A stretch of 57,414 nt of DNA, counting the filler, from Dimargaris cristalligena (taxonomy: Eukaryota), in assembly GCA_003614675.1 (NCBI GenBank). It is 3 parts of 3 records of this genome, joined end to end, with 100 filler letters (N's around TTAATTAATTAA, not from the genome) between each part and the next. Parts side by side here need not be neighbours in the genome. Positions count along the whole stretch, not along the records: positions 1 to 19,118 come from ML002739.1; 2 more parts are not named here. One strand, 5' to 3'. The notes under the pieces were generated by a model. That model did not search any database. It had not been told where the DNA came from and saw only the letters and a list, made by a program, of their open reading frames with translations. A program made the position numbers and the translations under genes. This document shows, piece after piece, positions 4,170 through 55,194 of the stretch (position 1 is its first letter; every line of letters begins with the position of its first letter).

Positions 4170-5760
4170 CAAGTATACGGCTATGGAAGTAGATGGGAAA
4201 TTTGATGCCACCTAGTATAAGTACAAACGGAAAGGTCTCACGGAGAGATACACCAAAGTGTGCCCAAATCGGCAATACTCGACCAAGGAGCTATGCCTTT
4301 TATTTCACCGCCAGGGCGGGCTTACTTACCCGCATGTTCCCGCTGCAGCATGTAAAGGCGATAAAATGCGCCATATAATGCAATTGTTTAAGGGATTTTT
4401 TGGAGTTACCACGGGGTGTTGGGTGGCCGAGTTCTTACAGGTCAACTGGCAGAGGAAAGCCCATAGTTAAATAGACACAGGCCAATCGGTGCCTTATACT
4501 TGGATTCATATATTGGGGCGTAGTCTTGTTGTACTTTGCAGCGCCTACTGATCTTTCTTTGAGTAATGGCTTTGCCCCGGCCCGGATATTCCATAAAATA
4601 CTCCGTTTACTGAGTTGTAGCCTACCTGTCGAATCACTTATAATCCACCTGCGCACTTATTTACATGACATTAGTAATTTCCCACTAACCCTATTTGGGC
4701 ATAACTCCCCCTAACCAGATAGATTCCGCTGTAGTATTTTATTTCTATTTGCATTGCTTTTTCCCCAATATTTGCCCTGTGTCGGGACCTAGATGGAATA
4801 GTATGTTCTTTAGAACATTATGTGCCTAATTAGGGTAATCAAAAACCGGATTTCTGGATTTTCCAATCAACCAATATTCTGTTGGTCTTCCAGTTGGTGA
4901 TGATGGAGTTGTGTAGGCAAGACATTAAATATAAATGGTAATAGTCCAGGAGTATATCAATTGGCAACTCGGCCATGTCTAAAGGGAGTGAGGGTGGGCG
5001 GTTAGGTACAGGATGCAATCCAATGTTCCGAGGTCTATGCAAAAGGTACTGGTAGTTGGTGCTCTAAGATTGTTCTTTCAAATTCTAGTCGATAACTGAG
5101 ATGTGCTACGGCTACCGACTAAGCTAAAATTAGGTGTGGTCAGACTGAATGCTGAATTGTTTGAAAGGTCCCCACATATTTTTTTCCCACTGGCTTACCG
5201 TCAAACCGTACCTACTACAGGGTGTTGGCCGAAGGTATGTCATTTGTCCATCATGTTATGAGCTATTTTTATTGATTTGGGATAATGGATCACCCAAGAC
5301 AATGCATGGGCGAGGGTTGCCTAATTGGGATACTGGCTCACTACATAGTTTCATGGTTCTGGAATTGGCCACTGAAAATCCGGTTTGGGGGTAATAGTAA
5401 AGGAAGGACATGACCTTCCAATCCAAATCCAATGGCTGTTTCACAATGACCGCCAGGGGCTTCTAAATATGCAAATATGAAATGATTCCGGAAAGAATAA
5501 TTGGCAGCGGGTGGTTATGGATAAGTACAAATCTCAGTTGGAAATTATAGAATATAAAGTTGATGCAAAAGGTTCAGTGGCAGTTAGCAAAAACACTTAG
5601 CTGCAACTTCCGAAATTGAGCAAGTTCTACTGTTGGACAACAGCTATGCAACACTGGGCTAAGAGGTACAAGTAAAGGATACTGCCTCTCTTTTGGTGCA
5701 GACAAAATTGGTTGAGACTGGTGGTCTCCTGACAGTCGATGGGGTTTTGAGTGAGCTGAA
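4170..5760 (+). mobile_element. Highly degenerate non-LTR (L1/Tx1-like) retrotransposon ORF2 3' half
   Basis: A stop-riddled frame contains LCLLFHRQGGLTYPH (~4291-4335), like the post-RT LxLPxxxGGLG motif. About 1.2 kb later comes MQKVQWQLAKTL...VGQQLCNTGLRGTSKGYCLSFG (5563-5700), like a zf-RVT region. No YADD found. Confidence 0.4.
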
Positions 5761-6110
5761 ATACATTCTTATTGGGGATGAACATAACCATTATTGCACA
5801 TTGGTGGGAACAGGTAAATGAGTATTACTACAGGAAAACCAGAGGGTTCCATAAAATAACGGAATTTGGCAACGGCCACTAGAAATCATAGGATAGGAAA
5901 TGTACAATGGCCCAGAGAGAATATTAAAGGATTAGGTGATGGTGACCTGGTAGATAATGAGGCTGGGGTGGTTGGTCATTATAGTTTTAATTTACTTTGG
6001 TGATTCTGCTTCTGCTATTCACCACCTGAGTGTCATCCAGACCCACTGTACTGGGGTTCTATTAGACTGAGGATGACCATTAAGCAATTCCCACCATTAG
6101 TACAGGGATG

Positions 6111-6254
6111 ATATGGGTGAGGTTCAACTTAGTTGTATAAGGTTTTAACCAATATGTATATGGGAGAATTGGTGGGATATTTATTTTCAACCAGTAGTGC
6201 TTGCCTCATCAAATGGATTTTTTGTTATACAGCCTTGTTGAACTACTCCTATAT
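6111..6254 (+). mobile_element. 144-bp MITE (ATAT-bounded family)
   Basis: ATATGGGTGAGGTTCA...TGAACTACTCCTATAT, colinear with the other three full copies. Confidence 0.8.
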
Positions 6255-6474
6255 CAACACAATAGGCACCAAAGTATTGGCACTAACTGGCAATTGGTAC
6301 ATAAGTAAAAGACACAAAGTTTTGTCATAGTTAATGATCTTATTCTTACATATAAGCTCATACTGTATTTTCCTAGCTGATCCAGCCATGATTGATGTAA
6401 TAATTTACCATTTTATGTATAGTGGTCATTTTTTTATTTGATATTCACAAATACAGGATAATAATCATTATATA

Positions 6475-7061
6475 TATCATACCCCCTATTCTGCCTTAAT
6501 CCCAACAAGCTAGTGCTCATCCCCATTAGGCCTTATAGCACCATATTAACCTTCCCAGGACCACACCCAGTACTATGGGATCACCCTATAACATATAACC
6601 ATTCCCCTTCTGGACTCCACCACTTTACACTAATCACTCAAGGGCTGATCTAACAACTCTTCCAATTACCATCAGAGTTTTCCAGATCCTAATAGCCATC
6701 TAGTTGGCCTATTTTACCATACCCTAGTCTTAGTAGTATTCTTCCCCCTGGGGCCTCCCTCTGGAGTTGTCCCTGTGTATATATAACTGGGCCCCATTAG
6801 GACTGGTTTAACAGCAGCCTATTCTTACCCCCCCCCTTAGTTTATCCCAATAAACTCCATATACACTCACTACCCCTGTTTTAACTAGTAAGTGTACTTG
6901 CTACATGTCCCTTGCCTATACCTGCATTTGTAGCCTTTATTAGTTAGTACCACACCCCCAACTAATGCTAGGAACCACTTAGCTGAGCCTGAGCCCCATT
7001 TACTATTAAAAGCCTATCCTCAGGACTCTTGATGGACTAAGAATGGTAAACCCAGGTGACA
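6475..7061 (+). mobile_element. Solo LTR, family 1, copy A
   Basis: Aligns end to end with 52617-53200. Termini TATCATACC...CCAGGTGACA; internal TATATATAA followed by AATAAA. No clean TSD. Confidence 0.8.
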
Positions 7062-7289
7062 ACAGGCAAGAGTAAAGTTAGTTTATAGTTAAGAAAAACA
7101 TCAATAAAACTAAAGTATTAAGGTATTATCTAATAGTTAATTCAAAAAATAAAGGAGTCCAACTAAAAACTGGATTAATTTTGTCAATATATAAAAGAGT
7201 ATTATGCCTAACATCTATTCCACCCAGTCTATTACCTTATATCCAGTTATGCAATTGCTCTTTTAATTATATTTTTACCTGTATTTCAA

Positions 7290-7870
7290 TGTTACCCTGG
7301 TTAACCCCTCCTAATCTATTAAGAGTCCTAAGGATAGGCTTCTAATAGTTGTTGTGGCTAAGTAGGTTACTAGCATCAGGTATAGGGTATAGTACTAACT
7401 AATAAAGGCTAGTAGTAGGTATATAAAAGGGATATACAGTAATTATACTTACTAGTCAATATGAGGGGGATGAGTATATATAAAGTTTATTAGGAGTAAA
7501 CTAAGGATAAGAATAAGCTAAGGAATCTAATTAGTCTTAATGGGGCCTAGTTATATATATATATATATATATAGGTGAGTCTGGAGGGAGGTCCCAAGTA
7601 AAGGATACTACTAAGACTAAGGTATAGGTAAATAGGCTAGCTGGACAGCTACTAGTATCCAGAAGACTCTGATGGCAACCAGAAGAGTCTAATAAATTGG
7701 CACTTAAGTAAGTAGTATAAATAGATAGAGTCTGGAGGGGGAAGGGTTATATAATAAAGGGTGATCCCATAGTACCAGGTGTAACTATGGGAAAGCTAAT
7801 ACAGCATGATAAGGCCTAATATAGTTAGAGTCTTAACTTGCTGGATTAAGGTAAATCAGAAGGGCTAACA
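7290..7870 (-). mobile_element. Solo LTR, family 1, copy B (inverted relative to A)
   Basis: Reverse complement of the family consensus; on the + strand it reads TGTTACC...CTAACA. The TATA box is expanded into a (TA)n run at ~7552-7573. No clean TSD. Confidence 0.8.
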
Positions 7871-8172
7871 CTATCTCTAAATAAAATAACCTGGGAGTAA
7901 CTGGATTAGTGTACATAATTTAGTAATTACAATACCTTTTTGGGCCTTTAGTGGCTATATTATCACCTCCCATAATATTTTCACCCTTTCTATTTGAAGG
8001 CCATGCTAATGTAGTCCCTGTTGGGGGCCTCCTTCAATATAATGTAAAAGGATTGGGAAAATACATTTTTAATATACCTATACAACAAATTCCTCTTTAA
8101 CTACTCCATATTCTTTGGGCTATATAATACCCTACTGGTGTTACTATATACAACGAGATTAGTGCCCCCATA

Positions 8173-11100
8173 TTAAGGCTGCCCATGCAGCTTCTCTAGA
8201 TAGGTCTTCTTGCGCAACCAAACCTGTTTCAAAGTATCCCGCAAATTTTCCTTCTCTTGCATAAAATTGTACTGGGAAAGATGGGACAGGCTTTTCACCT
8301 GCTCGGGGGTATAGGAGAAATTATAAGTTGAACAGAAATCAGCGGTCGCGGGATCAAAGTCGGCCACCTCGTATTCCGGATTGGCCAGTAAAGGATAGTA
8401 GACTAGGGCAATGGACGGCGGGGTAGGCGTTTGGCTGGTGGCGGAAGAGGATTCGGTCGATTTACCGCCCGTCCCCGAAGATCGGTCGGGGCTGGCCCGG
8501 CTTTGTTCGGCGAATTGGGGAGTGCCCTGGGATAAACTGGCCGGTTCGGTGAAAATGGCGCAGCGGTGCCCGTCAGCAAAGGGGTTCGGCTGGTCGGTTA
8601 AGTCCCGGTGGGTAGTCGAAATGGGATCCATGGCCACATCGGCTAGTTTGGTAAGAGGGGTGCAATCCTCACCGGCGCTATTCGAGGGGTCCGCTTCAGA
8701 TTTCGGACTTGATTCAGGCTTTGCACTCCTGTGGGACGACGAACCTTCCCCGTCGGTTCGTACATTTGGGGCAGAATTGTGGGTGGGCGGTTCATGGGCC
8801 CCAGGTGAAGGTCGGGGCCAAGGTGCCGCACCCTTGGGCCAGCGGGTAATCCCGTGCTGTCGGGCGAATTTTGACGCCCGTTCGAACCAGGGGGTTTCGT
8901 CAATGTCACTACTGGCATCGAATAATAGCATGACATCAACATTACGTTCGGGCCGAAGGAGGGGGTAGAATGGCAGGTTGTTATTCATGCCGGCGTCCAT
9001 GAGACATAACTGCTCACTGTCAAAGAGAGTGGTTGTTTCGGTATTCTTAGGTTTGGATGTGTGGGAGGTCGGCTGAGGGGCTTCGGTGGTGGCAGTCGTG
9101 CGGGTAGAAGTAGGGATGTTGTCCTTCACACTCGTACGAGACGGCGCGGGAATGGAATCTCCGGCGGGCTTGGAGATTTCCCGGGTACCGGACGTCACTT
9201 CATCGGTCCGTTTTTCGGACTGGGACTCTTCAGAGGGTCGGTAAAAAGGGTTATGGAAGCACGAGGGGGCGATGGGGTGGGTGGTAGTAACGGCCAGCTG
9301 GTAGTCCCGCACCAACCCTTCCAAATACTGGTGGACGGGGGCCGACAAGGTGCCCTTTACCTCGTCAATCAAATGGGCAATGGTGGCACAAAAGGCCGAT
9401 CCGAACATGCCCAAATATAAGCCGGCGCTGGGCTCGGGTAGATTGCGCAAAGACCGGCCGTCCCGGAAGGGGCGACCAAACCCCCAGGCGGGAATCCATA
9501 CGCCACCCCCGTCGATGGTGCCCATTTCGTACGGCGTGAACTCGAACCACTGGTACTTGTGGGTTTTGCTTAACCCCAGGGCGGACACAAATGCTACCCT
9601 TTCCTCCTCCGTCATGTGAGTCATGGCCGAATGAACGGACTCAGTATCACTGAAATGCGCGTCGGTGTCGTCGGGTAGTAGGGCCGGGGAAACTGGGGCG
9701 GACGATGACTCCGATGCGGTGGGCGACTCGGGGGTATCAGCCGCTTCCTTTGGTGCAACGTGTGAGCCTGGCATAATTTGGACCATTTTGGATTTAAGCT
9801 CGGCCATTGAAGGTAAGCCCTGCTTCCAATCCCCCGCGACGGTGGTCCCCGTTTCGGGATCATCTGCCCGCATGACCTTCCCGTCGGTCCGTATAATCTC
9901 GTGGCGTACCGCCGTATAGATGGGCATAGGTAAGCGACCGTCGGCTAGATACCGCTGTTGCCCCGTCAGTTTAGCATCCGCGGGATCACCAGTCGATGTG
10001 AGGGACCGCATAAGCAGGCGGGACATGAGCAAAGTGCCGTAAATATCGACCAAGGATAGGGGCATACCCGAGTCGAATTTAGACACCAGTCCGGCGAAGA
10101 CTGACGCCGCCGCGGGGGAAGTCAGCACCCCGGTCAGGGCGGAGACCGACGTGAGGGATGTTGTAATTTGTTGACTAATGTGTTTCTCCAACTCGGTTGT
10201 GGAACCGCGGGCGGCCACGAAATACTGCATGATTGTCCAGCAGGACCCCGAGACGCCAGCCAGATAAGTGGAACAGTCCAAGACACCGGCTTCGTCACAG
10301 GCGGTCAGGTAACCCAGAGTCGAAACCATAGCGCGGTAGCCACCACCACTGCCGGCCAATGCAATCACAGGCACGTTCTCAGGGGTCACTTCCGCTTCGG
10401 GCACCCCGATGAAACGAGCGAAGGCCGGGCAAACGACCTTCTTCAAACGATTAGCCCGGAATTCAATTTCCGTCAGCGGTAATTCTGACCCGCACCTCAC
10501 TTGGGCCTCCCAGCGTACTTCCGGGTGTACCTTAGGGTCGGTATAAGTATCCCGGATCGTTTCCACAAACGTCCCACTGACCATGGAACTGGCCATGCCA
10601 TTGAGGGTATCCTCCCAGCCACGCTTGACCCGCTCGGACTGTTCCTGGATGGCTCCTTTAATCTGATTAGGGTTGGGGAATTTCTGGGCCAGGACGCGTA
10701 ACCGGTGCTCTAGAGTGGCTGACCACGTTTGGGAGCTCTCGATGAGATTATGCAGACCGGCCAACTGGCTTTGCACATGTTGGACAAATTCAGTGTCCGG
10801 TATGCCTGTCTCCAGTCGGTCAATCACGTCCAGCTGGGCGGTTATGGCCTGGATGTATTCCCCGATTTCGGGAATGGGTTTACCGGTATGGTGGATTTCC
10901 GCCGCCTGGTCTTCCATCGGGGGCTGAGATACTTGGCTAAGCTCATGGATCCGGGAACGTAAGTGCACCACGATTTTGGCCACCCCTTGTTTGGCGTGGT
11001 AGTCCTGGCCGTACTTCTGGCTCAACTGGATAAGCTGCTCCAAATCGGTGAGCGTTTCCCGTATCTTTCGGATGGCATCGCGGGTCTGTATTAGCATGAC

Positions 11101-11325
11101 CTGACAGGGCGACGCATGGGGCGGGGATGGAGGAAGTTGCGATGTATTAGTAACCGACTTGTCGTGATCACCGGTAGCGTCACAGTGGATGCGATTTCTT
11201 TGCGGGGTGTGGTGGTAAAAGTAACGCCAACCCTTGAACACGGCCACACCGATCACCAGCGCTGTGGACACCCAGCGAATGTGATCAGTGACCATGATTA
11301 AAGAGGTGGCTGCAGGGGTCACCAT
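8173..11325 (-). CDS. Cytosolic phospholipase A2 / lysophospholipase (PLA2c/PLB family), 1050 aa; possible extra 5' exon at 11677-11509
   Basis: Uninterrupted ORF with the cPLA2/PLB motifs GSGGGYRAM, nucleophile GVSGS, LVDIYG, WFEFTPYE, GMFGSAF, catalytic Asp in LMDAG, and RNVDVMLLFDAS. Hydrophobic segment near the N-terminus (WVSTALVIGVAVF). Confidence 0.92.
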   Translation of the reverse strand: MVTPAATSLIMVTDHIRWVSTALVIGVAVFKGWRYFYHHTPQRNRIHCDATGDHDKSVTNTSQLPPSPPHASPCQVMLIQTRDAIRKIRETLTDLEQLIQLSQKYGQDYHAKQGVAKIVVHLRSRIHELSQVSQPPMEDQAAEIHHTGKPIPEIGEYIQAITAQLDVIDRLETGIPDTEFVQHVQSQLAGLHNLIESSQTWSATLEHRLRVLAQKFPNPNQIKGAIQEQSERVKRGWEDTLNGMASSMVSGTFVETIRDTYTDPKVHPEVRWEAQVRCGSELPLTEIEFRANRLKKVVCPAFARFIGVPEAEVTPENVPVIALAGSGGGYRAMVSTLGYLTACDEAGVLDCSTYLAGVSGSCWTIMQYFVAARGSTTELEKHISQQITTSLTSVSALTGVLTSPAAASVFAGLVSKFDSGMPLSLVDIYGTLLMSRLLMRSLTSTGDPADAKLTGQQRYLADGRLPMPIYTAVRHEIIRTDGKVMRADDPETGTTVAGDWKQGLPSMAELKSKMVQIMPGSHVAPKEAADTPESPTASESSSAPVSPALLPDDTDAHFSDTESVHSAMTHMTEEERVAFVSALGLSKTHKYQWFEFTPYEMGTIDGGGVWIPAWGFGRPFRDGRSLRNLPEPSAGLYLGMFGSAFCATIAHLIDEVKGTLSAPVHQYLEGLVRDYQLAVTTTHPIAPSCFHNPFYRPSEESQSEKRTDEVTSGTREISKPAGDSIPAPSRTSVKDNIPTSTRTTATTEAPQPTSHTSKPKNTETTTLFDSEQLCLMDAGMNNNLPFYPLLRPERNVDVMLLFDASSDIDETPWFERASKFARQHGITRWPKGAAPWPRPSPGAHEPPTHNSAPNVRTDGEGSSSHRSAKPESSPKSEADPSNSAGEDCTPLTKLADVAMDPISTTHRDLTDQPNPFADGHRCAIFTEPASLSQGTPQFAEQSRASPDRSSGTGGKSTESSSATSQTPTPPSIALVYYPLLANPEYEVADFDPATADFCSTYNFSYTPEQVKSLSHLSQYNFMQEKENLRDTLKQVWLRKKTYLEKLHGQP

Positions 11326-12680
11326 GATGCGGTAACAAAGAGGAAATGATCAAAACTGTGAATAAATAAAGCAGCGAAAACACGTGCCAGGGTAGGTTAT
11401 CATTATAAAGGAAACTAAGAGGACGAAAAAGAAAATAACGAAGCGGGCACAATGGCAATAAAAATAGGAAGTCAAGGCGAGGCGGGAGAGCTTAATGTAT
11501 TGATTTACCTTTAGGATGAACGTGACGCCGGTGGGGTGACGCGTTCCGCAATAATTGGCTGGGTCGATTGGAATAGCGGCGTTGTGAGGCTAAATAGCCC
11601 AGCTGGTGGTATTTGAAGTGAAGGAAGGGCTGGGGATACACAGGTACAACGTTAACGTGACGCAGAGCCGAATGCATGAGCGGAATCGGCGGAGTAGCAC
11701 GCTGGGTGGCAATGCAGAGGAGAAAAGAATGGTAATGGTCGGAGTAGAGTTGGGCAAAGGCCGACAGGGTGGAATGAGCGTCCACGGGGTTGTGACTAGG
11801 TTTAATAGGTGGGTCAGGAAGAGTAAACCTTGTAGGTGGTATAAGCGGACTGGTGCACATGGGCTATTCTCTAAGGCCAGCTACTCGAATGCGCCACAAG
11901 GGGAAGACGGAAGGCTCGTTTATAGATAGTGAGGTGAGGCTGAGGAATGGGAATATAGACAACAAGACGTAAGTGGAACCAGGGAAGGCTGGGTCTATTG
12001 ACGAGAAGTTCAGCTACGTCAACTTGGGAGGTCAGCTCGAGTTAAAAGCAGGGGGCCAACAGCAACTAAGGAGAGTACCACTATCCCGCTTAATTGTTGA
12101 CGTAAGTTATTGCGATATTTGATCACTCCATCAGCCCCAATAGTCAAGATCTACTGCAGCAATTCATCAATTTAGACACTGCAGCAGAAACAATAATTAC
12201 CTCACTTCCATAGTTAGTTTAACCAAGCGTGGGCCCCATCCACCTATTTGGGACATTGGTTGACGTCATAGCTCAATAATGGCCCATTTCCTGCCCACCA
12301 TCCGACAAGGCTGCTTTGGGTGATAGGGTCGAAACATCCAGAATGCCAAAATCGGGTTGATTGGGCAGGCCCTTGTGTAGGGAGGTTTAAGGGAGTAGCT
12401 CACAGTGCTTAAGCTACAATAATTCCAATAATGCACATTCCATCCGGACGGGCATACTCGCAGAAATAAACACCCAGGTGCTTGGAAGCATGAGAGGGCC
12501 CATCATGGATTCATCGCGTCTTTGGGTATATTCCATAGGAAAAGTAAAACATCACATTTATAATCATCTTTGGAAACAGCCAAGGAAGGGGGAGTTAATT
12601 TCCCCCCTAGGCCATCTGTGAAGAAACAATGCCAACGACCAAAAGTAATAATAAAAGGGCACATTGGCCAGCCCATCAAT

Positions 12681-15600
12681 TTAGTGGATCTGCAGTGGAA
12701 GAGTGAGTGTTGTTCGGGTCAGTAGTAATTGCAAAGTCGATCTTTCAACTAAAGCGCAGCAAACGTGCAAGTATAAGGGCTGGCTGATATCCGCCTGGTA
12801 GGTTGACAGGGCCGCGCGACTGGGTAATGCTATGGGTAGAGTTCCTCGGAAAAATCCGTTATTGACGGCTAAACGCTGGCTACTGGGTGGGGCAACAGCG
12901 TAAAGCTGGGTGTCTGCGGCCTGTGGTTTTACAACGCATGACGAGTCAATATGATATTAAAACGACAACAACAACATATAAACCCGCAGTAGGTTAGTTT
13001 TAAACGAAGACAGCTATACCTAATATGGCTAAATAAGAGGCGATAGTAATAGAATTGGGCTCCCCCTATACTAAAGATAGAATGTGTACCTTTACGTCAC
13101 CCTGGCTAACGAACCACTGGTACAAGTCGGATAGCTGGTAGATGTATTCCAAGGGAATGCGGGCCCGGGTGCTAACGAAGGTCAGTGTATCAACGGCAAT
13201 GTATTTGGATCTGGAAGGACGCCGTCCCCCATCCACAGCAGAAGAAGCGGGCAGGGTAGGTACCATATTGGTCGACCCGGATTCCCGTAAAAAGCCCTCG
13301 ACCTTGATCATAAAGATCTCCCCGCCTTGAGCGGCGAGGGGGGTATTAGGAACAGCCGGCTGTGGCTCCGCGCTCAACTATAGTGGGGGTAGCGGTAATA
13401 GTGAATGATAGCCAAAGGGTAAACCGGGCCAATTAATCACTATTGAAAGTAATCGCGCAAATTAACTGCAAATATCACTGCTTAATATGATCTAGCCTAG
13501 TAGTCGTCCACTAGTAGAACCGTATGTATATATTGCCACAAGCCCAAGTACATGGATCGGGTGAAACTTACCTGGATTAAATAATGTTCAGGACTATTGA
13601 ACCAAAATCGGGACAGATACAGGGGGGTTTGGCCAAGCGACTGCAGCACCTGCCGGAGGTTATCTTCCTCCAGTCGGGGGAGCCCCTCAGCCGTCTCGGG
13701 CACAGACCCCGCGGTAGACTCCGGCCCCCATACTTCATCCGGTAATGACCGGAGGTATGTAAACGTTAGGGAATATACATAATATAGGGCGTAGTCGGTC
13801 AGACCACCGGCCGAGTCGGGTTCAGAGGCTTCCATCATATCCAGGTGCATCATATTATCATCACCATCGCCGTCGTTATTATTGTCGACGGGCATGTGTG
13901 ACGAAGACAATGCCATGTCAGAATCGACGGTCGCACGCCGTTTGCTTTCCCGGTACCGTAACTCAGTTAACCGATGCACCACCGTAGGGTCCAGAATAAC
14001 CGGGGTGGTATTCCCAGTATCACCGGCTGCCTCCAACCACTGTCGAAAGTGAAATTGGAGGGCGACCGTGACCAGTGCGTAAGAATCGAGTATGTAATAG
14101 GTACTCTGATCCATGCCCGAAAATGCATTCTGCAAGCACCGTAACCAGTCACTGAGTTGTTCCGTAGTCTGAATCAAGTGGTGCAGCGCCCGCAGATCAA
14201 TCGACTGCGTGGGATTCAGTTCGCGGGTGCGCAGCCAGATGAGACCTAAGCGACATACATCCTTAAATTTTGCATGGCAGCTCAAATAGCCGCACTGGAA
14301 AGTACGGTCAAAACCAAGGCTAGATATGGCTCCCAGAATATCCAGGGCATCGCTATTCCGCAGAGTGTAATCCAGCAAGCCCTTGGTAGCGCTGGGTGAG
14401 GCCGACGGAGAGGCTGGGATGGTTAGCTCCCGGTCGGCGAGAAACTGCAGGAGGTTCCACCAAAGGGTGACAGAGGAACTAGGCCGCTCCGGCTGTTGAA
14501 GGAGGGGATCCAGGGTCATCCGTGCCGCGCGCCAGCTGCCGTAAGCGGCGAGTTTACGGAAGGCCCGGTACAAAGGAACGCTGGAGGGGGCCGTAGAGAC
14601 GCTACGGTCACGAAGGAAGGTGTACCATTGGTTATGGAAAGATTCGCTCAGAGTTGGCAAGTCTAAACGGGATTCCATAGGATCATTTAGGATTAAGCCC
14701 AGCGCCATCAAGCCATGGGTGAATATCTGAATTAGGGCGCCGTCGCATTTCCCTCCGCTGGGCGGTTGGTGTGATTGGGATTTCAGCTCCTGGAGTGGGG
14801 CTTGGATGGCCACAATATAGTCCGCCAGTCGATTCGATTGGCGGTAAAACCGATAAACTTGCTGGTCTATAAATCTGAGGGCTGTGTTGTCTAGCGTAAG
14901 GTAAAGGGAGAATAAACGATCGGTGGGGATCCACTGGCCTGCCGACTGACTATCACGAGCATGGTTATGTCCCAATGCGACTAGACCGGCGAAGAGGCGT
15001 TCCAACGCGGGCCGTAAGCTGGGTTCCGAGCTGGCGCTGACCACCCGGATGCATTCGACAGTTAGTTCGGCGGTGGTCCGGTTCATGGCTATAGTGGGAG
15101 TGAAGTTCCTACTCTCAGTGGAATCCAGCTCTACTATGTGGGTAATCAAAACGGCCAGCTGGCCAGCTGCGGCGGCCAATTCCAAATGAGCTGGGTTTAG
15201 CAATTGGTGACAGATGGTAACCAGGTCGACTAACTGGTCCCGCTGGCCCGGTGGGGTGGGGAACATCGGCAGGTCGGGCCGGTTGAGCATCGCGTGAATC
15301 GCCTGGACCGCCAGCTGGGCTAGTTCCGGGTGGGCGGTGTTGGCCTTTAAGTTGGTAATTAGCTTTGTGAGATGCTCGGGCCGGAACACAAGATCGCGGG
15401 TTGTAAGTAGTCTAATACAGATCAAAGTCTCCCGCTGCCACAGCTGGGCGGTGTTAGCAGTGCTGGATGGTTGATCGTCCGACTTCTTCAGATGGGCCAA
15501 TGCCTGTTGTGAAGGCGGCTGCTGAGGTTGATGATGATGATGATGATGATCCAGTAAACTGAAGACATGGTTAAGGAGCTCGCCGATATCCACCAGCGTA

Positions 15601-16409
15601 TGGGTAGCCAAATGGGTCGCCGTTTTCATGACGTACAAACTCAGTTCGGATGCCGTCCGTTCACTCAGCCACGTGAAACAGAGCCGGCGGGCCTCATCGG
15701 CGAGGGCCGGATCCTTGTACATATGCCTTAACATGTACACCAACCGACATTTAGCCGGGCCCAACGTACGGGGCGCATGGATCAGGTAGGTCAGGGTCGG
15801 CCACAACGCCTTGGGAAACGAGGCCGAGGCCTGACACACCTGATCGGCGGCATGAATCGCTGCCGCGGCCTCTACCGGGTGGGTCGATGACAGCCGCCTT
15901 AGAATCGCGTGTTGCACGTCCAGACGCTCGCCCAACCGCCGTGCGAAACACCCCAACGTCCGCAGTGCCAGAATCCGGGCCAACGGGTCCGTCATACCCA
16001 CCACCGCCAGAATACGCCGCGCCAGTTCGTTACTATTCAGGATCCGCCCCATGTAACTCTGTAGCCGGTAGAAGGTTTGCAGAATAAAGTACCGCAGGCC
16101 ATTATGGCCAGACCGGAATAGCTCGGCCAGTTTGAGGAAGCCGGTGTTGACGATGAGCGGGAAGGGACAATGCCGGAACAGTCGTTCGAACTCGAGAATC
16201 GCCCGGATTTGGGTACCCAGGCGCTGTTGGCGACAGGCTGCTTCAAGTTCCAGAAGGCGTTTAAAGGCCACGTCGGCAGTGGGCGGTTGGTCCCGGTCTT
16301 TGATAACATCGAAAGCATCCGGACGGGTAGTGAAGGGTAGCGCGCTAAATGCGGGAGGGGGCGGAGTCGGCGATGCCGTGGCCCGTGTCGTGGCCAGAAA
16401 GGCGGCCAT
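12681..16409 (-). CDS. INTS7: Integrator complex subunit 7; exons 16409-13572, 13377-13090, 12920-12681 (~1121 aa)
   Basis: The N-terminus QIRAILEFERLFRHCPFPLIVNTGFLKLAELFRSGHNGLR...DPLARILALRTLG matches the INTS7 N-terminal signature as I recall it. Phase-0 introns CAG|GTAAGT...TAG (13571-13378) and AAG|GTACAC...CAG (13089-12921) join the 970-aa and 103-aa ORFs to a final 79-codon exon ending at TAA 12683-12681. Confidence 0.88.
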
Positions 16410-17832
16410 GGTTCCTTTAAGTAAACAAATTAAAACTAAAAATAAACCAAATAGGGGGAAGTTTACAAAACTGCGGGGAAGATGGAGGGAGGAACCTCTA
16501 AGTAATTAGCCAACCTTGGTAATTATACTTTTTTGGAAAGGGAGGGGGGATTGGAAGCCGATGTTTTCCAACCCTCTGAGCACATGCCAATCCGCTTATG
16601 CTACCAATTCGATGGTGGGACTGGATAATAATAGAATCCCCCACAACCGTGTAATAGCGTGATGGCTAAGACGCGTATTCCCTGTTAAAAAAAGCATCGC
16701 CTGCCTTTATTGCCCCATACCTAATATCTAAAACCGTGCATAGTTGCCTTGAGTTCCAACTATATGATATTAACAACATGTTATGGTGCCGACCGAAAAT
16801 ACCCATCCATGTTAAGGACATAAAACGAGCCATCCCAGGAATCCAGGCCTAATCGTTCCAAACTGGGTTTGATAACTTCATCGCGTGAATGGCTTTTTGT
16901 AAATCGACTTTGTTATATCCTATATGGCTGGCTGTTACCCCAAGAGCATTCTTATAAGCACTCCACAGTCCAGGACGTAGACGAAGCAATGGTAAAAAAA
17001 GAGGGGGAGTATTCTTATTCAGATAGAGAAGGCTGCCAAAGGATAGTCGCAGCCCAGCAACAGCAATGCCATTTTGATTAATTGCGACAATTGTGATGTG
17101 GTGTGAAGGCTAGCCTGCGTTACTATTGTGCAACCCAATTCATGAAAGCATGAAAGAACCACTGGACTACGCACAATTCAGAATTGTAATTCCCTGCCCC
17201 AACTGTCCCAAGCACCAAAATCCAGAGGGAACAAACTGCAACTTAATTTGCATCATTTACCACAATTATACTTAGATGGTTATTTGCAACTCCCGGACTA
17301 TCTATGGCTATAATAAATTGTTGAAGTCCTGGAGGCTTCAACCTTCCTATTAGGACACAGCATTGGGTATTGTTCATGGTATGGTCAGACTGTGACTATT
17401 TCATTGGCAGTTTCATCAGTTGGGCCTATCCTAACCAGATACATTAGCAGTATATTGTAATACTTGACCAGGATATTTTTTTCCAAATAAACCATGCAGT
17501 AGGCTCCACTACAGAGTCCAGTGTTCTTCACTGGGTTAATTATATTTGTCCACAAATAGCAAGTTATGTAGAAGAAATTACCTGTAAAGAAACCTTGGTC
17601 ATAGCCAAATCCCCAGGCTGGGTGCCATAAGTATGGGAATAAGCCATAGCACCAATACATTATACCTAATTATACCTCAATATCAGATTTTTAATACCAA
17701 ATGGCACAATGTAGACTTTAATGCTGCAATATAAATTGACAACAAAGGAAATGAGTTGGTATAGCTATTGTACCTTATCACATTCTTAATTCCCATTAAC
17801 AATTAGGGTATTATCTACCAAATAATTATACG

Positions 17833-18787
17833 TATCACCTGGGTTTACCACTCTTAGTCCATCAAGAGTCCTAAGGATAGGCTTCTAACAGTAGGTGGGG
17901 CTTAGACTCAGTCAAGTGGGCTACTAATGTCAGGTGCAAGGTACAATACTAACTAATAAAGGCTTAGTAGTAGGGATATGTAAGGGACATGCAGTGGGCA
18001 CACTTATATCATGACTGGTTAATTCAAACTACAAGAATAACCAGCCATATAAGTAAAAAACCCATACCAATTAATGGGTAAATTAACATTTAATATTATA
18101 GAAATATATCCCTATTATCCTACTATATTTTATTACTGTCATTATATTCCCCTTATTCTCTAGTTACTGATTCTTATTTATTAATCATCACTATTCCCCC
18201 CTACCCCTTAAGTTTAAATATAACCCCAGCCATTTCCCCACAGCTTGCTCTTTAGCTTACAACTTCCCTTTTATTTTGTCTTATTCTGATATTTTATTTT
18301 AAAAAACTTATTCCTATCTTTCCAAGTCCTGTTTATCCTGTGGTACCTGGCCTTAATACTAGCCCATCATAATAACTTACTAGTCAGTACAAGAGTGAGT
18401 GAGTATATATAGAATTTATTAGGTGTAAACTAGGGGTAAGAATAAGCAAAGGGATCTAACTGATCCCAATGGGACCTGGTTATATATATGTAGGGACAAC
18501 TCCAGAGGGAGGTCCTAAGGGAATAATACTATGAATACTAAGGTATAGATAAATAAGATACCTGGATAGTTGCAGGTATCCAGAAGACTCTGATGGTAAC
18601 TGGAAGAGACTTTGGATTAGTACTTAAATCATTAGTGCAAAGAAGTAGTCCAGAAGGGGAAGAGTTATATGATATGATGATCCCATAGTACCAGGAGTAA
18701 CCATAGGAAGTTTAATATGGTACTATAAGGCCTAATATGGTTGGCTGCCTAATCCAGCTAGATTAATGAGGATTAGATGGTCTAATA
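17833..18787 (-). mobile_element. Solo LTR, family 1, copy C, interrupted by a nested element
   Basis: 17833-18006 plus 18375-18787 reconstruct a full reverse copy. Flanks ATACG (17828-17832) and ATATA (18788-18792) fit a decayed 5-bp TSD. Confidence 0.8.
18007..18374. mobile_element. Nested solo LTR of a second family (368 bp)
   Basis: Perfect 5-bp TSD ACTTA (18002-18006 and 18375-18379). Inverted termini TATCATGA...TCATAATA fit decayed TGTCATGA...TCATGACA. Confidence 0.8.
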
Positions 18788-18873
18788 ATATAGAATATGA
18801 CTATGTATATAGCCTACCTTATTAGGGAGGGGGAAGGGGTAGTAAGTTACCCTATTCTATACTTAGTTAATAA

Positions 18874-18970
18874 TATTAGCCTACTTAACTACTCTTAATC
18901 CAGCAAGTTAAGACTCTAACTATATTAGGCCTTATCATACTGTATTAGCTTTCCCATAGTTACACCTGGT
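18874..18970 (+). mobile_element. Truncated 5' fragment of a family-1 LTR (copy E)
   Basis: 18894-18970 is the reverse complement of 7774-7850 with one mismatch. Confidence 0.7.
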
Positions 18971-19118
18971 GTAGTGAACTTACCACATTTTTTACCTACT
19001 TTTATTTTTTATCTATTTTTCGCACTTATCAGAAGTACGCCCCCTGATGAGTGAATGAGCCCCTGCCCCTGCCCCTGACCGGATGATACCCCTGCATTCA
19101 CACTGCCCCTGGCCCGAC

Positions 19119-19218
19119 NNNNNNNNNNNNNNNNNNNNNNNNNNNNNNNNNNNNNNNNNNNNTTAATTAATTAANNNNNNNNNNNNNNNNNNNNNNNNNN
19201 NNNNNNNNNNNNNNNNNN
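19119..19218. other. Assembly linker (N44-TTAATTAATTAA-N44), contig junction
   Basis: Exactly 100 bp: 44 N, the six-frame stop 12-mer TTAATTAATTAA at 19163-19174, then 44 N. Confidence 0.97.
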
Positions 19219-19284
19219 TGCGGGGCGTCCGTGGATCTGATACAAACTCTGAATAGCCCCTTCAGTCAGGGCGGCGGGAATTCC
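19219..19284 (-). pseudogene. Inverted paralogous copy of dehydratase exon 2, running off the contig start
   Basis: Reverse complement reads ctag|GGA ATT CCC GCC GCC CTG ACT GAA GGG GCT ATT CAG AGT TTG TAT CAG ATC CAC GGA CGC CCC GCA (GIPAALTEGAIQSLYQIHGRPA). It is 61/66 nt identical to 19631-19696. Confidence 0.7.
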
Positions 19285-19467
19285 CTAGCATTTTATTCCC
19301 AGGTGGCGTTCACTCCCACTGGCCGAAACATCTCAGTCCCGTCCCCGAGCCCACCAGTTACCAACATTCGACTCATTCCATCCGATTTATAAGGTCGAAT
19401 TCCTTCAGCAGCATTCGCATTCCCTTAAGTTCCCAGACATAGTTTCTTCTAGCAGGCTCTGCCGAGT

Positions 19468-20948: not shown

Positions 20949-22244
20949 AAAAAAATACGCCGTCATCTCCGCACATACATACACACATACATACATACTC
21001 GTGGGGCACGTAGTTTGTGATCAGCTATTACATTGTATTCGCAAATAATTGGTTGTTTGAGTGGTATTTATATGTCATATTTATATAAAGGTATAGTCTA
21101 GTGTATATTTCCACATTTCCTATAATACGTTTTTGATCAGTTCTGGAAAGCTATGGGGCCCCATTACCCCAGATTGAAGTACTACACCTCACATGTCGGG
21201 GGGTATCTTGTGGGTCGATTCAAGACGGATCCGAAAATTGCCAACACTGTCCTTATTACTTTTCGGTAAGAACCATACTCTTATCCGATAAGGACATTTG
21301 AGATTTTTGCGACATTGGTTTCCAGGTCGTTGTTATTCTCGTTCTGTAAATAAATGATGATACATCAGTACCAGACCACATCCACCGCCCAAGCCCCATA
21401 CTGAATTCACCTGAAATATCTGTAAGCCTTGCTATCGTTATGGCCCACAGCGACACTGGCCCCTACTAGTCGTTGGGGCCGACCCAATTCCTAATCACCC
21501 AGCCCATATAGCCAAATTCGGGGATCTATGCAAACGGGATAACCATGCATAAATGAGAGTTCCCCCACTCCCGCTACCCTTGTCCTCTTCTCCATGCTAT
21601 TATCCAAAGAAAGCGGGTCATCCCAACTCTATATTATGCATCGGCCCATTTCACCAGTCGATGGAGATATACCCGTTCTTCATGTTTCATAAAATAGGTT
21701 CATCGAGGCGGATTCCAAAACAGGGCATTTCCCTCTACTTACCTGCAGTGTAAGGTGGTGTAGTCCCTCCTCCCCTCCCCTGCCTTCTCTTTTTAAAATG
21801 GCTGCATCAGCTGGTATTGTCTTCGTGTAAATACGGCATAAACGCACCTCATCTACCCCTAATCATCGATCATCTCTGCCCACTACCAACTATATATGAC
21901 TTAAGCATGGGGGGGGAGTGCGACAAAACAGACACACATGTACAATAAGTTTAGTAAGCCGGGTAGCTTTGATATCGGCCGTGTTTTTTGGTGATGGGGG
22001 TGGAAATGGAAGTGGGATATCGGTATAAACCGGGTAGCAGCGGCTTCAACTCAAGCACCGGCTAGGCGGGCGGGTAGATCATCATCACGAGTACTGGTTA
22101 GTTTTGTGGGGGTACAAGGCAAGCCTAGTAGAGTAAGTATGTGGCCTGGTGAGCACCCCAACTTGGGAGGAGTTGGCGTCATGTGGGATTAAAACCCTTG
22201 TTCGAGAGCCCAAAGAGGGGTCTGGAAGGGCCAATCTGTTGATT

Positions 22245-22388
22245 ATATGGGAGAAGTTCATTCAGGCTGTATAACGAAAAATCCACTGGATGAGGCCAAT
22301 ATTACTGGTTAAAAGCTATTTTCACATATGTTCGCCCATACACGTATTATGTAAAGCCCTATACAGCTGGTTTGAATTTCATCCATAT
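22245..22388 (-). mobile_element. 144-bp MITE (ATAT-bounded family)
   Basis: ATATGGGAGAAGTTCA...TGAATTTCATCCATAT, a reverse-orientation copy. Confidence 0.85.
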
Positions 22389-38271: not shown

Positions 38272-38371
38272 NNNNNNNNNNNNNNNNNNNNNNNNNNNNN
38301 NNNNNNNNNNNNNNNTTAATTAATTAANNNNNNNNNNNNNNNNNNNNNNNNNNNNNNNNNNNNNNNNNNNN
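38272..38371. other. Assembly linker (N44-TTAATTAATTAA-N44), contig junction
   Basis: Same structure as the first linker, with the 12-mer at 38316-38327. Confidence 0.97.
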
Positions 38372-52268: not shown

Positions 52269-52412
52269 ATATGGGTGAAATTCAGCCCAGCTATATAAGG
52301 GTTTACATTATATGTGTATAGAAGAATATATGGGAAATTTATTTTTAGCTAGTAATATTGGCCCCATTTAATGGATTTTTCGTTATGCAGCTTGGATGAA
52401 CTTCTCCCATAT
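52269..52412 (+). mobile_element. 144-bp MITE (ATAT-bounded family)
   Basis: Imperfect 30-bp TIR: ATATGGGTGAAATTCAGCCCAGCTATATAA versus the reverse-complemented end ATATGGGAGAAGTTCATCCAAGCTGCATAA (24/30 match). Confidence 0.85.
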
Positions 52413-52616
52413 ATACCTATATGAGTGCTTTATTGGGATTGAAAAAAAAATTGTTTAAAATGTAAAGTAGTAGTCAAATATATTTAGTGAAAGTAACTGC
52501 ATTTTAAAGAATGCACCCCCATAAGTGTGATTCTTAAAAACTTAGTGGCTGGAAATCCAATGGAACAGCCAATGTATGGAGGTTAATTAGTACCTGACTT
52601 TGGGATATAGCCACTG

Positions 52617-53200
52617 TGTTAGACCATCTAATCTGACTTAATCCGGATACAATGATGTCCACCTCCATTAGGCCTTATAGCACCATATTAACCTTCCCAT
52701 GGTCACCCCCAGTACCATGGGATCACCCTATATCATATAACTATTCACCTTCCAGACTCCTTGTTCACATTTATCACTCTGGTGCCAATCTGAATACTCT
52801 TCTAGCTACTATTAGAGTATTCCAGATACTAATAGCCATCCAGTTGGCCTATTTACCTATACCTTAGTCTTAGTAGTATCCTTCCCTTGGGACCTCCCTC
52901 TGGAGTTATCCCTATGTATATATAACTGGTCCCCATTGGGACCAGTTAGATTCCTTAGCTTATTCTTACCCCCCTTAGTTTACCCCAATAAACTATATAT
53001 ATACTCACCCCCCTTGTATTGACTAGTAAGTGTACTCCCTGCATGTCCCTTACTTATATCTGAATTTGTAGCCTTTATTAGTTAGTACCATGTCCCCAAC
53101 CTAATGCTAAGACCAGCTTGGCTGAGCCTAAGCCTCACCTGCCATTAGAAGCCTATCCTCAGGACTCTTGATGGACTAAGAGTAGTTAACCTGGGTGATA
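52617..53200 (+). mobile_element. Solo LTR, family 1, copy D (584 bp)
   Basis: Termini TGTTAGACC...CTGGGTGATA. Flanks CACTG (52612-52616) and TACTA (53201-53205) form a 5-bp TSD with two transitions. Contains TATATATAA and AATAAA. Confidence 0.85.
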
Positions 53201-53388
53201 TACTAGACTACAATATTTACTAATAAACCAAAAAAAAACCTAAGTGATATTTTTCATTGATTGAGCTATAGAGTAAAAGTATCCCTATAAGTAAAAAATA
53301 CTGAAGCCATGGGAAGATTGATGTATGATGAGCAGACTTGGTGATAGGAGGGTTGCTAACATTTAGCTAACTGATTCTAAGACCATGC

Positions 53389-53697
53389 CTAATTGAGCAC
53401 ACCTATAGGGAGACTAGTTTGAATATTACCAAGTTTAGGAGTCAAGGAAGGCCTTGTCAGCAAGGGGGGCATTATGGGCTTTACTCCAGGGGACCGACTA
53501 TTATTTGGCTGACTTGGGACAGTTCTGCATGGAGAAACTGCTGTGGGGGCTGGCTTGGGCTGACGACAGTGGAGATGGGTGATCAATGCAGGCAACCCAG
53601 TATGTCTGTTATGGTCAGCTAAGAGACAGGCTAAGGAAAAGGGTGTTGCTACCATGGTGAGGAATGCAGCAGCAGTGATAGTGCCAATAAAGTACAT
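53389..53697 (-). pseudogene. Signal-peptide-bearing ORF, possibly the 5' part of a secreted-protein gene broken by LTR copy D
   Basis: MYFIGTITAAAFLTMVATPFSLA start in the context CAACATG, downstream of a TATA-like element (CCTATAAAAA on the minus strand, ~53832-53841) and a pyrimidine-rich leader. CpG-poor and pointing into the LTR. Confidence 0.35.
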
Positions 53698-55051: not shown

Positions 55052-55194
55052 ATATGGGTGAAATTCAGCACAGCTGTATAAGTTTTACAAGATATATGTA
55101 TGGGATAATAGGTAGGAGATTTAATTTCAACCAGTAATATTTGCCCCACCCAGCGGATTTTTCGTTATACAGCTTGGATGAACTTCTCTCATAT
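55052..55194 (+). mobile_element. 143-bp MITE (ATAT-bounded family)
   Basis: ATATGGGTGAAATTCAGCACAGCTGTATAA...TTATACAGCTTGGATGAACTTCTCTCATAT. Confidence 0.85.

What the first reader, a model, noticed from the sequence alone, without database searches (positions are those of the whole stretch)
5875..8153. CpG-free zone with CpA>TpA decay centred on LTRs: RIP-like hypermutation in an apparently non-Dikarya fungus
Seen: I found no CG dinucleotide between 5875 and 8153 (~2.3 kb), although CC, GG and CT remain common and the adjacent PLA2 gene is CpG-rich. The zone extends ~600 bp left and ~280 bp right of the LTR pair. Across the window, 7 of 11 LTR termini read TA instead of the canonical TG/CA, and the TSD CACTG has become TACTA. 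These are CpA>TpA changes, not CpG changes. The MITE copy inside the zone has TTTGTTAT where outside copies have TTCGTTAT, so the effect depends on position. Known: CpA>TpA is the Neurospora-type RIP signature, characterised mainly in Dikarya. Inference: a repeat-triggered mutational defence acting on C followed by a purine and spreading into flanks.
Basis: partly seen in the sequence, partly recalled or inferred. Interest (0 to 1): 0.75.

Follow-up and report, generated by a model that had tools for sequence, protein, structure and literature searches.

The report
CpG-erased retrotransposon LTR islands in Dimargaris
Old retrotransposon remnants in this early-diverging fungus have lost every CpG and about a third of their CpA sites to C-to-T mutation, which looks like decay of methylated repeats with a RIP-like side signature and not like proven Neurospora-type RIP.

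Summary
There is no CG from 5875 to 8153: the gap is 2,281 bp, about 55-77 CpGs are expected, and 0 of 2,000 shuffles reach zero. Every CpG-free tract over 500 bp in the window lies on one ~585-bp solo-LTR family. The genome is Dimargaris cristalligena (Zoopagomycota), so "non-Dikarya fungus" is correct.

Aligning four LTR copies shows what made the zone. At 20 dinucleotide positions the copies carry TG in some and CA in others, which marks ancestral CpGs that decayed independently. None of the 80 cells keeps CG, and TG (32) and CA (31) are balanced.

A weaker CpA>TpA component is also real. The chance of C>T per copy is 0.34 at CpA, 0.05 at CpC and 0.07 at CpT. Five of 9 LTR termini read TA, and one TSD reads CACTG/TACTA.

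The order of preference is CpG >> CpA > CpT ≈ CpC. That fits mutation linked to cytosine methylation on a silenced TE island better than Neurospora-type RIP, where CpA is the top target. CpG loss extends about 450 bp into the flanks; TpA gain is almost confined to the LTRs.

The DNMT genes and 5mC of this genome could not be tested. Verdict: partly supported, a new member of a known kind.

The parts
5875..8153 (.). CpG-free zone 1: the whole TE-filled intergenic stretch up to 19 bp from the 3' end of the PLA2_B ORF
   Evidence: CG at 5873, next at 8154. GC 0.37, CpG o/e 0.00, TA o/e 1.35. 0 of 2,000 shuffles reach 0 CpG.
6475..7061 (+). Solo LTR copy A (5' end TA, 3' end CA)
   Evidence: BLAST and alignment to copies B, C and D. 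Edges. TA/AT 1.50.
7290..7870 (-). Solo LTR copy B, tail-to-tail with A. Both termini are intact (TG...CA), yet it is the most TpA-converted copy.
   Evidence: TA/AT 1.69 and (CA+TG)/(AC+GT) 0.58. TA at 8 of 20 ancestral CpG sites and 9 of 23 CpA sites.
7062..7289 (.). AT-rich spacer between LTR A and B, no CpG
   Evidence: GC 0.26, TA/AT 1.26. Expected 2.6 CpG at background o/e.
6111..6259 (+). MITE copy M1 inside the zone, no CpG
   Evidence: TTTTTTGTTAT against TTTTTCGTTAT in M2-M4.
17294..19021 (.). CpG-poor zone 2, with a single CG at 17831 that lies in the TSD of copy C
   Evidence: Gaps of 537 and 1,190 bp. CpG o/e 0.04.
17833..18787 (-). Solo LTR copy C (TA...TA termini; TSD TATAT/CGTAT), interrupted by a nested element
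18007..18374 (.). 368-bp element nested in copy C: perfect 5-bp TSD ACTTA, TA...TA ends, no CpG
18874..18970 (+). LTR 5' fragment E, 91% identical to copy B
   Evidence: It shares B's TG state at 2 of 3 ancestral CpG sites.
52381..53495 (.). CpG-poor zone 3 (on a different contig), with one CG at 52644 inside the LTR
   Evidence: Gaps of 263 and 851 bp. CpG o/e 0.05.
52617..53200 (+). Solo LTR copy D (TG...TA termini; TSD CACTG/TACTA at 52612-52616 and 53201-53205)
52269..52413 (+). MITE copy M3 at the edge of zone 3, retains 1 CpG
22240..22388 (-). MITE copy M2, far from any LTR, retains 3 CpGs
55052..55194 (+). MITE copy M4, far from any LTR, retains 2 CpGs
8173..11349 (-). PLA2_B (lysophospholipase) ORF that bounds zone 1. 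CpG-rich.
   Evidence: Pfam PF01735, E = 3.7e-33. CpG o/e 0.90-1.01 in the 1-kb windows.

Best explanation
Zone 1 is a small nest of transposon debris in Dimargaris cristalligena. It holds two inverted solo LTRs, a MITE and their spacers, and it ends at the 3' end of a gene. After insertion it underwent context-dependent C-to-T mutation on both strands.

The dominant process removes CpG (to TpG or CpA) and has run to completion. A weaker process, at most about a quarter of the CpG rate, turns CpA/TpG into TpA. C followed by C or T mutates at background rate.

The most likely mechanism (inferred, not shown) is cytosine-5 methylation of a silenced TE island followed by deamination of 5mC. Methylation would be heavy and symmetric at CpG and lighter at CpA. 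It would be strongest on the repeats and fade over about 450 bp of flank.

Shown here: the polarity, context and location of the mutations. Inferred: that methylation is the cause, and which enzyme does it.
For: (1) Twenty dinucleotide columns in the four-copy LTR alignment mix TG and CA, against 0-6 for every other dinucleotide tested the same way. The states are TG 32, CA 31, TA 17 and CG 0 of 80, so the decay is symmetric, independent in each copy and complete.

(2) 0 of 80 surviving gives a per-C rate above 1.65. The rates are 0.42 at CpA, 0.068 at CpT and 0.048 at CpC.

(3) CpG o/e is 0.01 in LTR bodies, 0.12-0.19 out to 450 bp, 0.59-0.65 at 451-1000 bp and 0.89 at 1.5-2.5 kb. Long ORFs have 0.94.

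(4) The left flank has raised CA/TG o/e (1.25-1.47) with normal TA o/e, as expected for pure CpG decay.

(5) Post-insertion polarity: 5 of 9 LTR termini are TA instead of TG/CA. The TSD of D is CACTG/TACTA and the TSD of C is CGTAT/TATAT.

(6) Both strands are hit: 19 CA/TA sites and 15 TG/TA sites.

(7) In the sister order Kickxellales, Linderina pennispora is listed with DNMT1 and UHRF1 and with 5mC 'Y', and Coemansia reversa with DNMT1 and UHRF1 (supplement table of PMC10538959). [quoted passage not shown]

(8) A CpG-predominant plus CpA-secondary C>T signature on TEs is already described in Tuber melanosporum (passages of PMC4352252).
Against: No methylation data and no DNMT inventory for D. 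cristalligena could be obtained here.

A DNMT1/UHRF1-only system, which is what Linderina is listed with, is expected (from general knowledge) to methylate CpG only. The 6-9-fold CpA excess is then unexplained unless a Dim-2-like or relaxed-specificity enzyme exists.

The CpG rate is at least 24-34 times that of CpC/CpT. As I recall, that is higher than the roughly 10-18-fold seen for spontaneous 5mC deamination in mammals.

The TpA excess is strong only inside repeats: TA/AT is 1.50 there, 1.03-1.07 in the first 300 bp and 0.88-0.98 beyond. A repeat-recognising mutator would also predict this.

All rates rest on four copies of about 560 aligned columns. Copies A and D share state at 11 of 20 CpG sites, and fragment E shares copy B's state at 2 of 3, so the star-tree assumption is imperfect.
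Confidence: 0.6

Rival explanations
1. A true RIP-like defence: a homology-triggered, DNMT-like mutator that recognises repeated DNA and deaminates C before a purine. It would act alone or on top of ordinary CpG methylation decay.
For: CpA>TpA is 5-7 times more probable per copy than C>T at CpC or CpT (0.34 against 0.047 and 0.066), and a test that needs no polarity gives p = 4e-9. Pooled LTR bodies have TA/AT 1.50 and (CA+TG)/(AC+GT) 0.85, against 0.95 and 1.15 in other noncoding DNA. The TpA excess is nearly confined to the repeats. MITE copies of 145 bp far from LTRs keep 2-3 CpGs and show few CA>TA changes (3 singletons in 2 copies). This would fit a length threshold.
Against: CpG, not CpA, is the top target by at least 4-fold. 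The ts/tv ratio is only 1.8-2.3. The copies are 72-82% identical, which is at or below the identity that Neurospora RIP needs (a threshold I recall, not tested). DNMT4/RID is 'ND' in Linderina and Coemansia. A kingdom-wide k-mer screen found repeat-directed signatures only in Ascomycota (abstract and section 9 of PMC12543289), although it used only scaffolds over 50 kb. A single process with a CpG >> CpA preference that fades with distance also fits the flank numbers (my arithmetic).
Confidence: 0.2
2. The CpA>TpA component is a general mutational bias of noncoding DNA in this genome and is not tied to repeats. Only the CpG loss is specific to the locus.
For: CA/TG>TA is the commonest singleton class in the MITE family too: M1 3, M2 1, M3 4, M4 2, which is 10 of 40 singletons. 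Window-wide TA o/e is 1.06, which I recall as unusually high for a eukaryote.
Against: The MITE copies far from LTRs (M2, M4) show only 3 such changes. By my estimate that is out of roughly 30 site-copies, or about 0.10, against 0.34 in the LTRs at similar overall divergence. Noncoding background has TA/AT 0.95 and CA/TG o/e 1.02, so CpA is not depleted there.
Confidence: 0.15
3. There was no post-insertion process. The LTR family was CpG-free and TpA-rich from the start, and the flanks are CpG-free by chance.
For: The inferred ancestor already looks TpA-rich and CpA-poor: about 34 ancestral CA/TG sites and 36 invariant TA dinucleotides in about 560 columns.
Against: TG/CA alternation is seen at 20 positions against 0-6 in controls. 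Termini and TSDs are mutated. The four non-LTR, non-MITE pieces of the zone are each CpG-free, with Poisson P(0) of 0.0006, 0.042, 0.075 and 0.0046 at background o/e.
Confidence: 0.03

Closest known systems
CpG-signature C>T decay of methylated transposons (Microbotryum, Puccinia, Melampsora; Tuber melanosporum with a secondary CpA signature), as described in Amselem et al. 2015, PMC4352252 (passages read)
   Same: C>T bias on TE copies with CpG as the predominant target. In Tuber there is also a secondary CpA signature. The authors attribute it to cytosine methylation followed by deamination.
   Different: Those species are Dikarya; this is a Zoopagomycota fungus. Here the CpG loss is complete and measurably spreads about 450 bp into flanks. 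The DNMT class is unknown.
Neurospora-type RIP (RID-dependent, premeiotic)
   Same: C:G>T:A mutation of repeated DNA. CpA>TpA is raised. Composition indices of the LTR bodies look RIP-like. There is some leakage next to the repeat (the TSD of copy D).
   Different: The preference order is CpG >> CpA here. ts/tv is about 2. No RID is known in the sister order. Dependence on duplication and on the sexual cycle is untested.
Dim2-dependent mitotic CA>TA mutation in Zymoseptoria tritici TEs (Moller et al. 2021, PMC8016269; abstract and passages read)
   Same: CA>TA transitions concentrated in methylated TEs, with no need for classical RIP. That paper calls CA a preferred Dim2 site 'in addition to CGs'.
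   Different: In Zymoseptoria the CGs were not mutated; here CpG is erased completely. A Dim2 gene in Dimargaris is unverified.
5mC confined to repeats in Linderina pennispora (Kickxellomycotina), as cited in Lax et al. 2024, PMC11258239 (passage read; the original Mondo et al. 2017 was not read)
   Same: Same subphylum, and repeats are the methylated compartment. This is the expected cause of CpG decay.
   Different: That is a methylation map, not a mutation spectrum. No CpA component is mentioned in the passage I saw.

Membership tests
Neurospora-type RIP | C:G>T:A mutations concentrated in repeated DNA | tested here: met
   All CpG-free tracts over 500 bp and all TpA excess lie on one LTR family.
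Neurospora-type RIP | CpA is the preferred target (CpA > CpT > CpG > CpC, as I recall it) | tested here: not met
   Per-C rate is above 1.65 at CpG, 0.42 at CpA, 0.068 at CpT and 0.048 at CpC.
Neurospora-type RIP | Changes are almost exclusively transitions | tested here: not met
   Pairwise ts/tv is 1.8-2.3 over 565 columns. Old copies and alignment error may dilute this.
Neurospora-type RIP | RIP composition indices (TpA/ApT high, (CpA+TpG)/(ApC+GpT) low; thresholds 0.89 and 1.03 recalled) | tested here: met
   Pooled LTR bodies give 1.50 and 0.85; copy B gives 1.69 and 0.58. The noncoding background gives 0.95 and 1.15, so the first threshold does not discriminate in this genome.
Neurospora-type RIP | RID/Masc1 (DNMT4) gene present | not testable with these tools
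   No eukaryotic genome collection was available and no permitted DNMT query sequence. The relatives Linderina and Coemansia are listed 'ND' for DNMT4.
Neurospora-type RIP | Triggered by duplication, premeiotic | not testable with these tools
   This needs crosses or mutation-accumulation data.
5mC-driven CpG decay of methylated transposons | Ancestral CpGs replaced by TpG or CpA, independently in each copy and symmetrically | tested here: met
   20 mixed TG/CA columns against 0-6 in controls. TG 32, CA 31, TA 17, CG 0 of 80. The same holds after L-INS-i realignment.
5mC-driven CpG decay of methylated transposons | Genes nearby keep their CpGs | tested here: met
   Long ORFs have CpG o/e 0.94. 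The zone ends 19 bp from the PLA2_B ORF.
5mC-driven CpG decay of methylated transposons | 5mC actually present on these loci; maintenance DNMT in the genome | not testable with these tools
   Only indirect evidence: DNMT1 and UHRF1 are listed for Linderina and Coemansia, and 5mC is listed for Linderina only.
Dim2-type mitotic CA>TA mutator | CA>TA in TEs while CG is spared | tested here: not met
   CA>TA is present (p = 0.34), but CG is completely lost.
Solo LTR of an LTR retrotransposon | TG...CA termini, 5-bp TSD, several dispersed copies, no internal coding region | tested here: met
   Copy B has TG...CA, and the other copies differ from it only by TA. TSDs: D 3 of 5, C 3 of 5, nested element 5 of 5; A and B show none. 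None of the 37 ORFs scanned hit a TE protein domain.

The most novel reading that the evidence does not exclude
A Zoopagomycota fungus, outside Dikarya and probably lacking RID, runs a repeat-restricted mutator on C before a purine. It erases CpG and converts about a third of CpA to TpA in LTRs. This would be an independent or ancestral form of RIP-like genome defence, missed by kingdom-wide screens because the assembly is too fragmented.
Probability: 0.2. Interest if true: 0.7.

Novelty: new member of a known kind. Interest (0 to 1): 0.45.

Why it matters
RIP-like mutation is currently thought to be restricted to Ascomycota (PMC12543289), with CpG-biased variants in some Basidiomycota. A measured context hierarchy of CpG >> CpA > CpT ≈ CpC on transposon remnants of a Kickxellomycotina mycoparasite extends methylation-linked TE decay to a barely studied phylum. 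It also gives a concrete test: does the CpA component come from non-CpG methylation, from a Dim-2-like enzyme, or from a homology-sensing mutator that predates Dikarya? In practice it marks these contigs as carrying silenced TE islands that end sharply at gene boundaries.

Tried and rejected
APOBEC-type editing of retroelement cDNA: rejected, because both strands are hit about equally (19 CA/TA and 15 TG/TA sites) and host TSD bases are mutated.

CHG-type (CAG/CTG) specificity: not seen among the listed CpA sites; CAT, CAA, CAG and CAC all occur (by eye).

Strand-coherent runs of mutations in copy B: not supported once sites shared with other copies are counted.

Searching for TE protein domains near the LTRs: none of 37 ORFs hit one.

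tRNA and Rfam scans of the window: nothing.

Other repeat families that could widen the sample: none in the window beyond the LTR, the MITE and a 69-bp inverted pair.

The annotated collections hold phages, plasmids and E. coli only.

DNMT inventory of Dimargaris: not done, because no permitted query sequence was available.

The first bootstrap crashed and was rerun.

TSDs for copies A and B: no convincing pair.

Literature: the searches 'Dimargaris cristalligena' + methylation, Dimargaris + transposable elements + CpG and RIP + Zoopagomycota found no paper on this signature in this species. Bewick et al. 2019 and Mondo et al. 2017 were not in the library and were not read.
Full report
**What the window is.** The 1,002-aa ORF at 13497-16505 (-) is 100% identical to an NCBI protein of Dimargaris cristalligena. 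That record's contig is 19,118 bp long, which equals the first piece of the window. The window has two N44-TTAATTAATTAA-N44 linkers, at 19119-19218 and 38272-38371. It is therefore three contigs of about 19 kb joined end to end, not one continuous locus. The LTR and MITE families occur on more than one piece, so the pieces belong to one genome. D. cristalligena is a Zoopagomycota (Kickxellomycotina) mycoparasite, so "non-Dikarya fungus" is right. Recognisable genes are:
- PLA2_B at 8173-11349 (-)
- INTS7 at 13497-16505 (-)
- prephenate dehydratase/ACT at 19947-20948 (+)
- an LYR protein at 48651-49193 (+)
- a 2,713-aa ORF with no Pfam match

**The observation.** CG occurs at 5873 and next at 8154. 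This 2,281-bp gap is the longest in the window, followed by 1,190 bp (17831-19021), 851 bp (52644-53495) and 537 bp (17294-17831). The next longest is 321 bp. From its own C and G content the zone should hold 76.9 CpGs, or 54.6 at the noncoding background o/e of 0.71. None of 2,000 shuffles had fewer than 53. The four pieces of the zone that are neither LTR nor MITE are each CpG-free, with Poisson P(0) of 0.0006, 0.042, 0.075 and 0.0046 at background o/e. Long ORFs have CpG o/e 0.94.

**Anatomy.** All four long tracts lie on one solo-LTR family of about 585 bp:

| Copy | Coordinates | Strand |
|---|---|---|
| A | 6475-7061 | + |
| B | 7290-7870 | - |
| C | 17833-18787 | - (split by a nested 368-bp element at 18007-18374) |
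| E (5' fragment) | 18874-18970 | + |
| D | 52617-53200 | + |

- Zone 1 also holds a 145-bp MITE (6111-6259). Other MITE copies lie at 22240-22388, 52269-52413 and 55052-55194.
- No TE protein domain was found in any of 37 ORFs scanned, so the LTRs are solo.
- Zone 1 ends 19 bp from the end of the PLA2_B ORF. It fills the TE-laden intergenic space up to the gene.

**What erased the CpGs.** The four full copies share 565 aligned columns and are 72-82% identical, with ts/tv of 1.8-2.3.
- At 20 dinucleotide positions the copies carry only TG, CA or TA, with TG and CA both present. The same test gives 0-6 positions for other dinucleotides. TA gives the same 20 by symmetry, but the bimodal site rates and the CG retained in copy C's TSD rule it out as the ancestor. 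These positions are therefore ancestral CpGs that decayed separately in each copy.
- The states are TG 32, CA 31, TA 17 and CG 0 of 80.
- So the family arrived with CpGs and lost all of them afterwards, equally on both strands.
- 0 of 80 surviving puts the per-cytosine rate above 1.65 (95% bound).
It is not true of the zone as a whole.

**The CpA component is real.** I counted columns that hold only C or T and have a 3' neighbour fixed in all four copies. The table gives the number of sites with 0 to 4 copies carrying T.

| 3' neighbour | 0 | 1 | 2 | 3 | 4 |
|---|---|---|---|---|---|
| A | 5 | 16 | 9 | 10 | 72 |
| C | 26 | 6 | 0 | 3 | 25 |
| T | 35 | 11 | 1 | 9 | 36 |

- Without assuming polarity: among sites where at least one copy has C, 5 of 40 are invariant at CpA, against 61 of 91 at CpC plus CpT (p = 4e-9). 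After dropping columns near gaps the counts are 4 of 34 against 48 of 73 (p = 1e-7).
- A star-tree ML fit gives C>T per copy of 0.341 (bootstrap 0.246-0.445) at CpA, 0.047 at CpC and 0.066 at CpT. T>C is 0.02-0.05.
- Polarising singletons by three-of-four agreement gives 18 of 92 at CpA, 15 of 296 at CpC and 16 of 288 at CpT (p = 1.8e-5). Without copy B the p-value is 0.025.
- By my arithmetic, hidden ancestral CpGs (about 7 sites) would account for only about 3 of these events.
- Independent polarity comes from sites whose ancestor is known. Five of 9 LTR termini read TA instead of TG/CA. The TSD of D is CACTG/TACTA. The TSD of C is CGTAT/TATAT, where the retained CG is the lone CpG at 17831.
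- Both strands are affected (19 CA/TA and 15 TG/TA sites), and no CAG/CTG preference is visible.

**Space.** Values below are pooled over the six flanks of the three LTR blocks.

| Region | CpG o/e | TA/AT |
|---|---|---|
| LTR bodies | 0.01 | 1.50 |
| 1-150 bp | 0.19 | 1.03 |
| 151-300 bp | 0.12 | 1.07 |
| 301-450 bp | 0.16 | 0.88 |
| 451-1000 bp | 0.59-0.65 | 0.75-0.98 |
| 1-1.5 kb | 0.74 | 0.92 |
| 1.5-2.5 kb | 0.89 | 0.86 |
| Noncoding background | 0.71 | 0.95 |

- The left flank of zone 1 has CA/TG o/e of 1.25-1.47 with normal TA o/e, which is the signature of pure CpG decay.
- So CpG loss clearly spreads about 450 bp, while TpA gain is essentially a property of the repeats.
- By my arithmetic, one process with a CpG >> CpA preference that weakens with distance also fits the 0-300 bp values. 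The flank data therefore cannot separate one process from two.

**Nuances.**
- Copy B is the most converted: TA at 8 of 20 CpG sites and 9 of 23 CpA sites, against 2-4 of 20 and 3 of 23 in the others. Yet it keeps intact TG...CA ends.
- Fragment E is 91% identical to B and shares B's TG state at 2 of 3 CpG sites. Part of B's load was therefore probably inherited from an already decayed source copy. The star tree is an approximation; A and D also share state at 11 of 20 sites.
- In the MITE family, CA/TG>TA is also the commonest singleton class (10 of 40). The copies far from LTRs contribute only 3 of these and retain 2-3 CpGs each.

**Mechanism.** The order CpG >> CpA > CpT ≈ CpC, its symmetry, the restriction to TEs and the sharp stop at a gene fit methylation-linked C>T decay of a silenced TE island.
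- Context from papers: in the sister order, Linderina and Coemansia are listed with DNMT1 and UHRF1, and with no DNMT4/RID or DNMT5. Linderina is listed as having 5mC (supplement table of PMC10538959). A passage of PMC11258239 says Linderina's 5mC is almost exclusively in repeats.
- CpG-predominant plus CpA-secondary TE signatures exist in Tuber (PMC4352252).
- Dim2-dependent mitotic CA>TA exists in Zymoseptoria, though CG is spared there (PMC8016269).
- A kingdom-wide screen found repeat-directed signatures only in Ascomycota, but it used only scaffolds over 50 kb (PMC12543289).
- Neurospora-type RIP fails two features tested here (CpA as top target; near-pure transitions), and its genetic features are untestable here.
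- The CpA excess is the one part a DNMT1-only system would not explain. It keeps a RIP-like or Dim-2-like reading alive at roughly 0.2.

**Verdict.** This is a new member of a known kind: methylation-type CpG decay of transposons, here in a Zoopagomycota fungus. It carries a genuine but small-sample CpA>TpA side signature that deserves a whole-genome test.

Noticed in passing
19119-19218 and 38272-38371: Two N44-TTAATTAATTAA-N44 linkers (stop codons in all six frames). The window is three contigs of about 19.1 kb of one assembly joined end to end, so adjacency across the linkers is not real. Each linker is flanked by near-identical sequence, reported as repeat families D1, I4, I17 and I19.
   Followed up: partly
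38921-47062 (-): A single uninterrupted 2,713-aa ORF with no Pfam family at E <= 0.001. Its first 1,000 residues give only a weak VWA-like lead in the ESM Atlas (best score 0.85, below the 0.9 the tool treats as more than a lead). It has long low-complexity Ser/Pro/Ala tracts.
   Followed up: partly
13497-16505 (-): A clear Integrator complex subunit 7 homologue (Pfam INTS7_N, E = 1.9e-63). Homologues turned up in other Dimargaritales and, weakly, in a centipede. As I recall, Integrator is missing from most Dikarya, so its retention here is notable.
   Followed up: partly
18007-18374: A 368-bp element nested inside LTR copy C, with a perfect 5-bp TSD (ACTTA) and imperfect inverted ends (TATCATGA.../...TCATAATA). 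It could be a small LTR or a MITE, and it has no other copy in the window. Its perfect TSD suggests it is younger than its host LTR, yet it has no CpG.
   Followed up: partly
6475-7870: LTR copies A and B lie tail-to-tail, 228 bp apart, and neither has a recognisable TSD. This may be a rearrangement between two elements and not two clean insertions.
   Followed up: no
19219-19292 and 19623-19696: A 74-nt inverted repeat, 91% complementary with 330 nt between the arms, right at the start of the second contig. Unexplained.
   Followed up: no
1-1000 and 5001-5874: Further CpG-poor stretches (o/e 0.30 and 0.38) with high (CA+TG)/(AC+GT) (1.62 and 1.32) and no detectable repeat copy apart from a 34-bp MITE fragment at 46-79. 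They may be older methylated debris.
   Followed up: no
whole window: CC/GG dinucleotides are over-represented throughout (o/e 1.32-1.33; 1.19-1.20 even in the two gene-rich stretches measured, 8154-17000 and 39000-48000), and TpA is not depleted (o/e 1.06). This is an unusual background composition.
   Followed up: no
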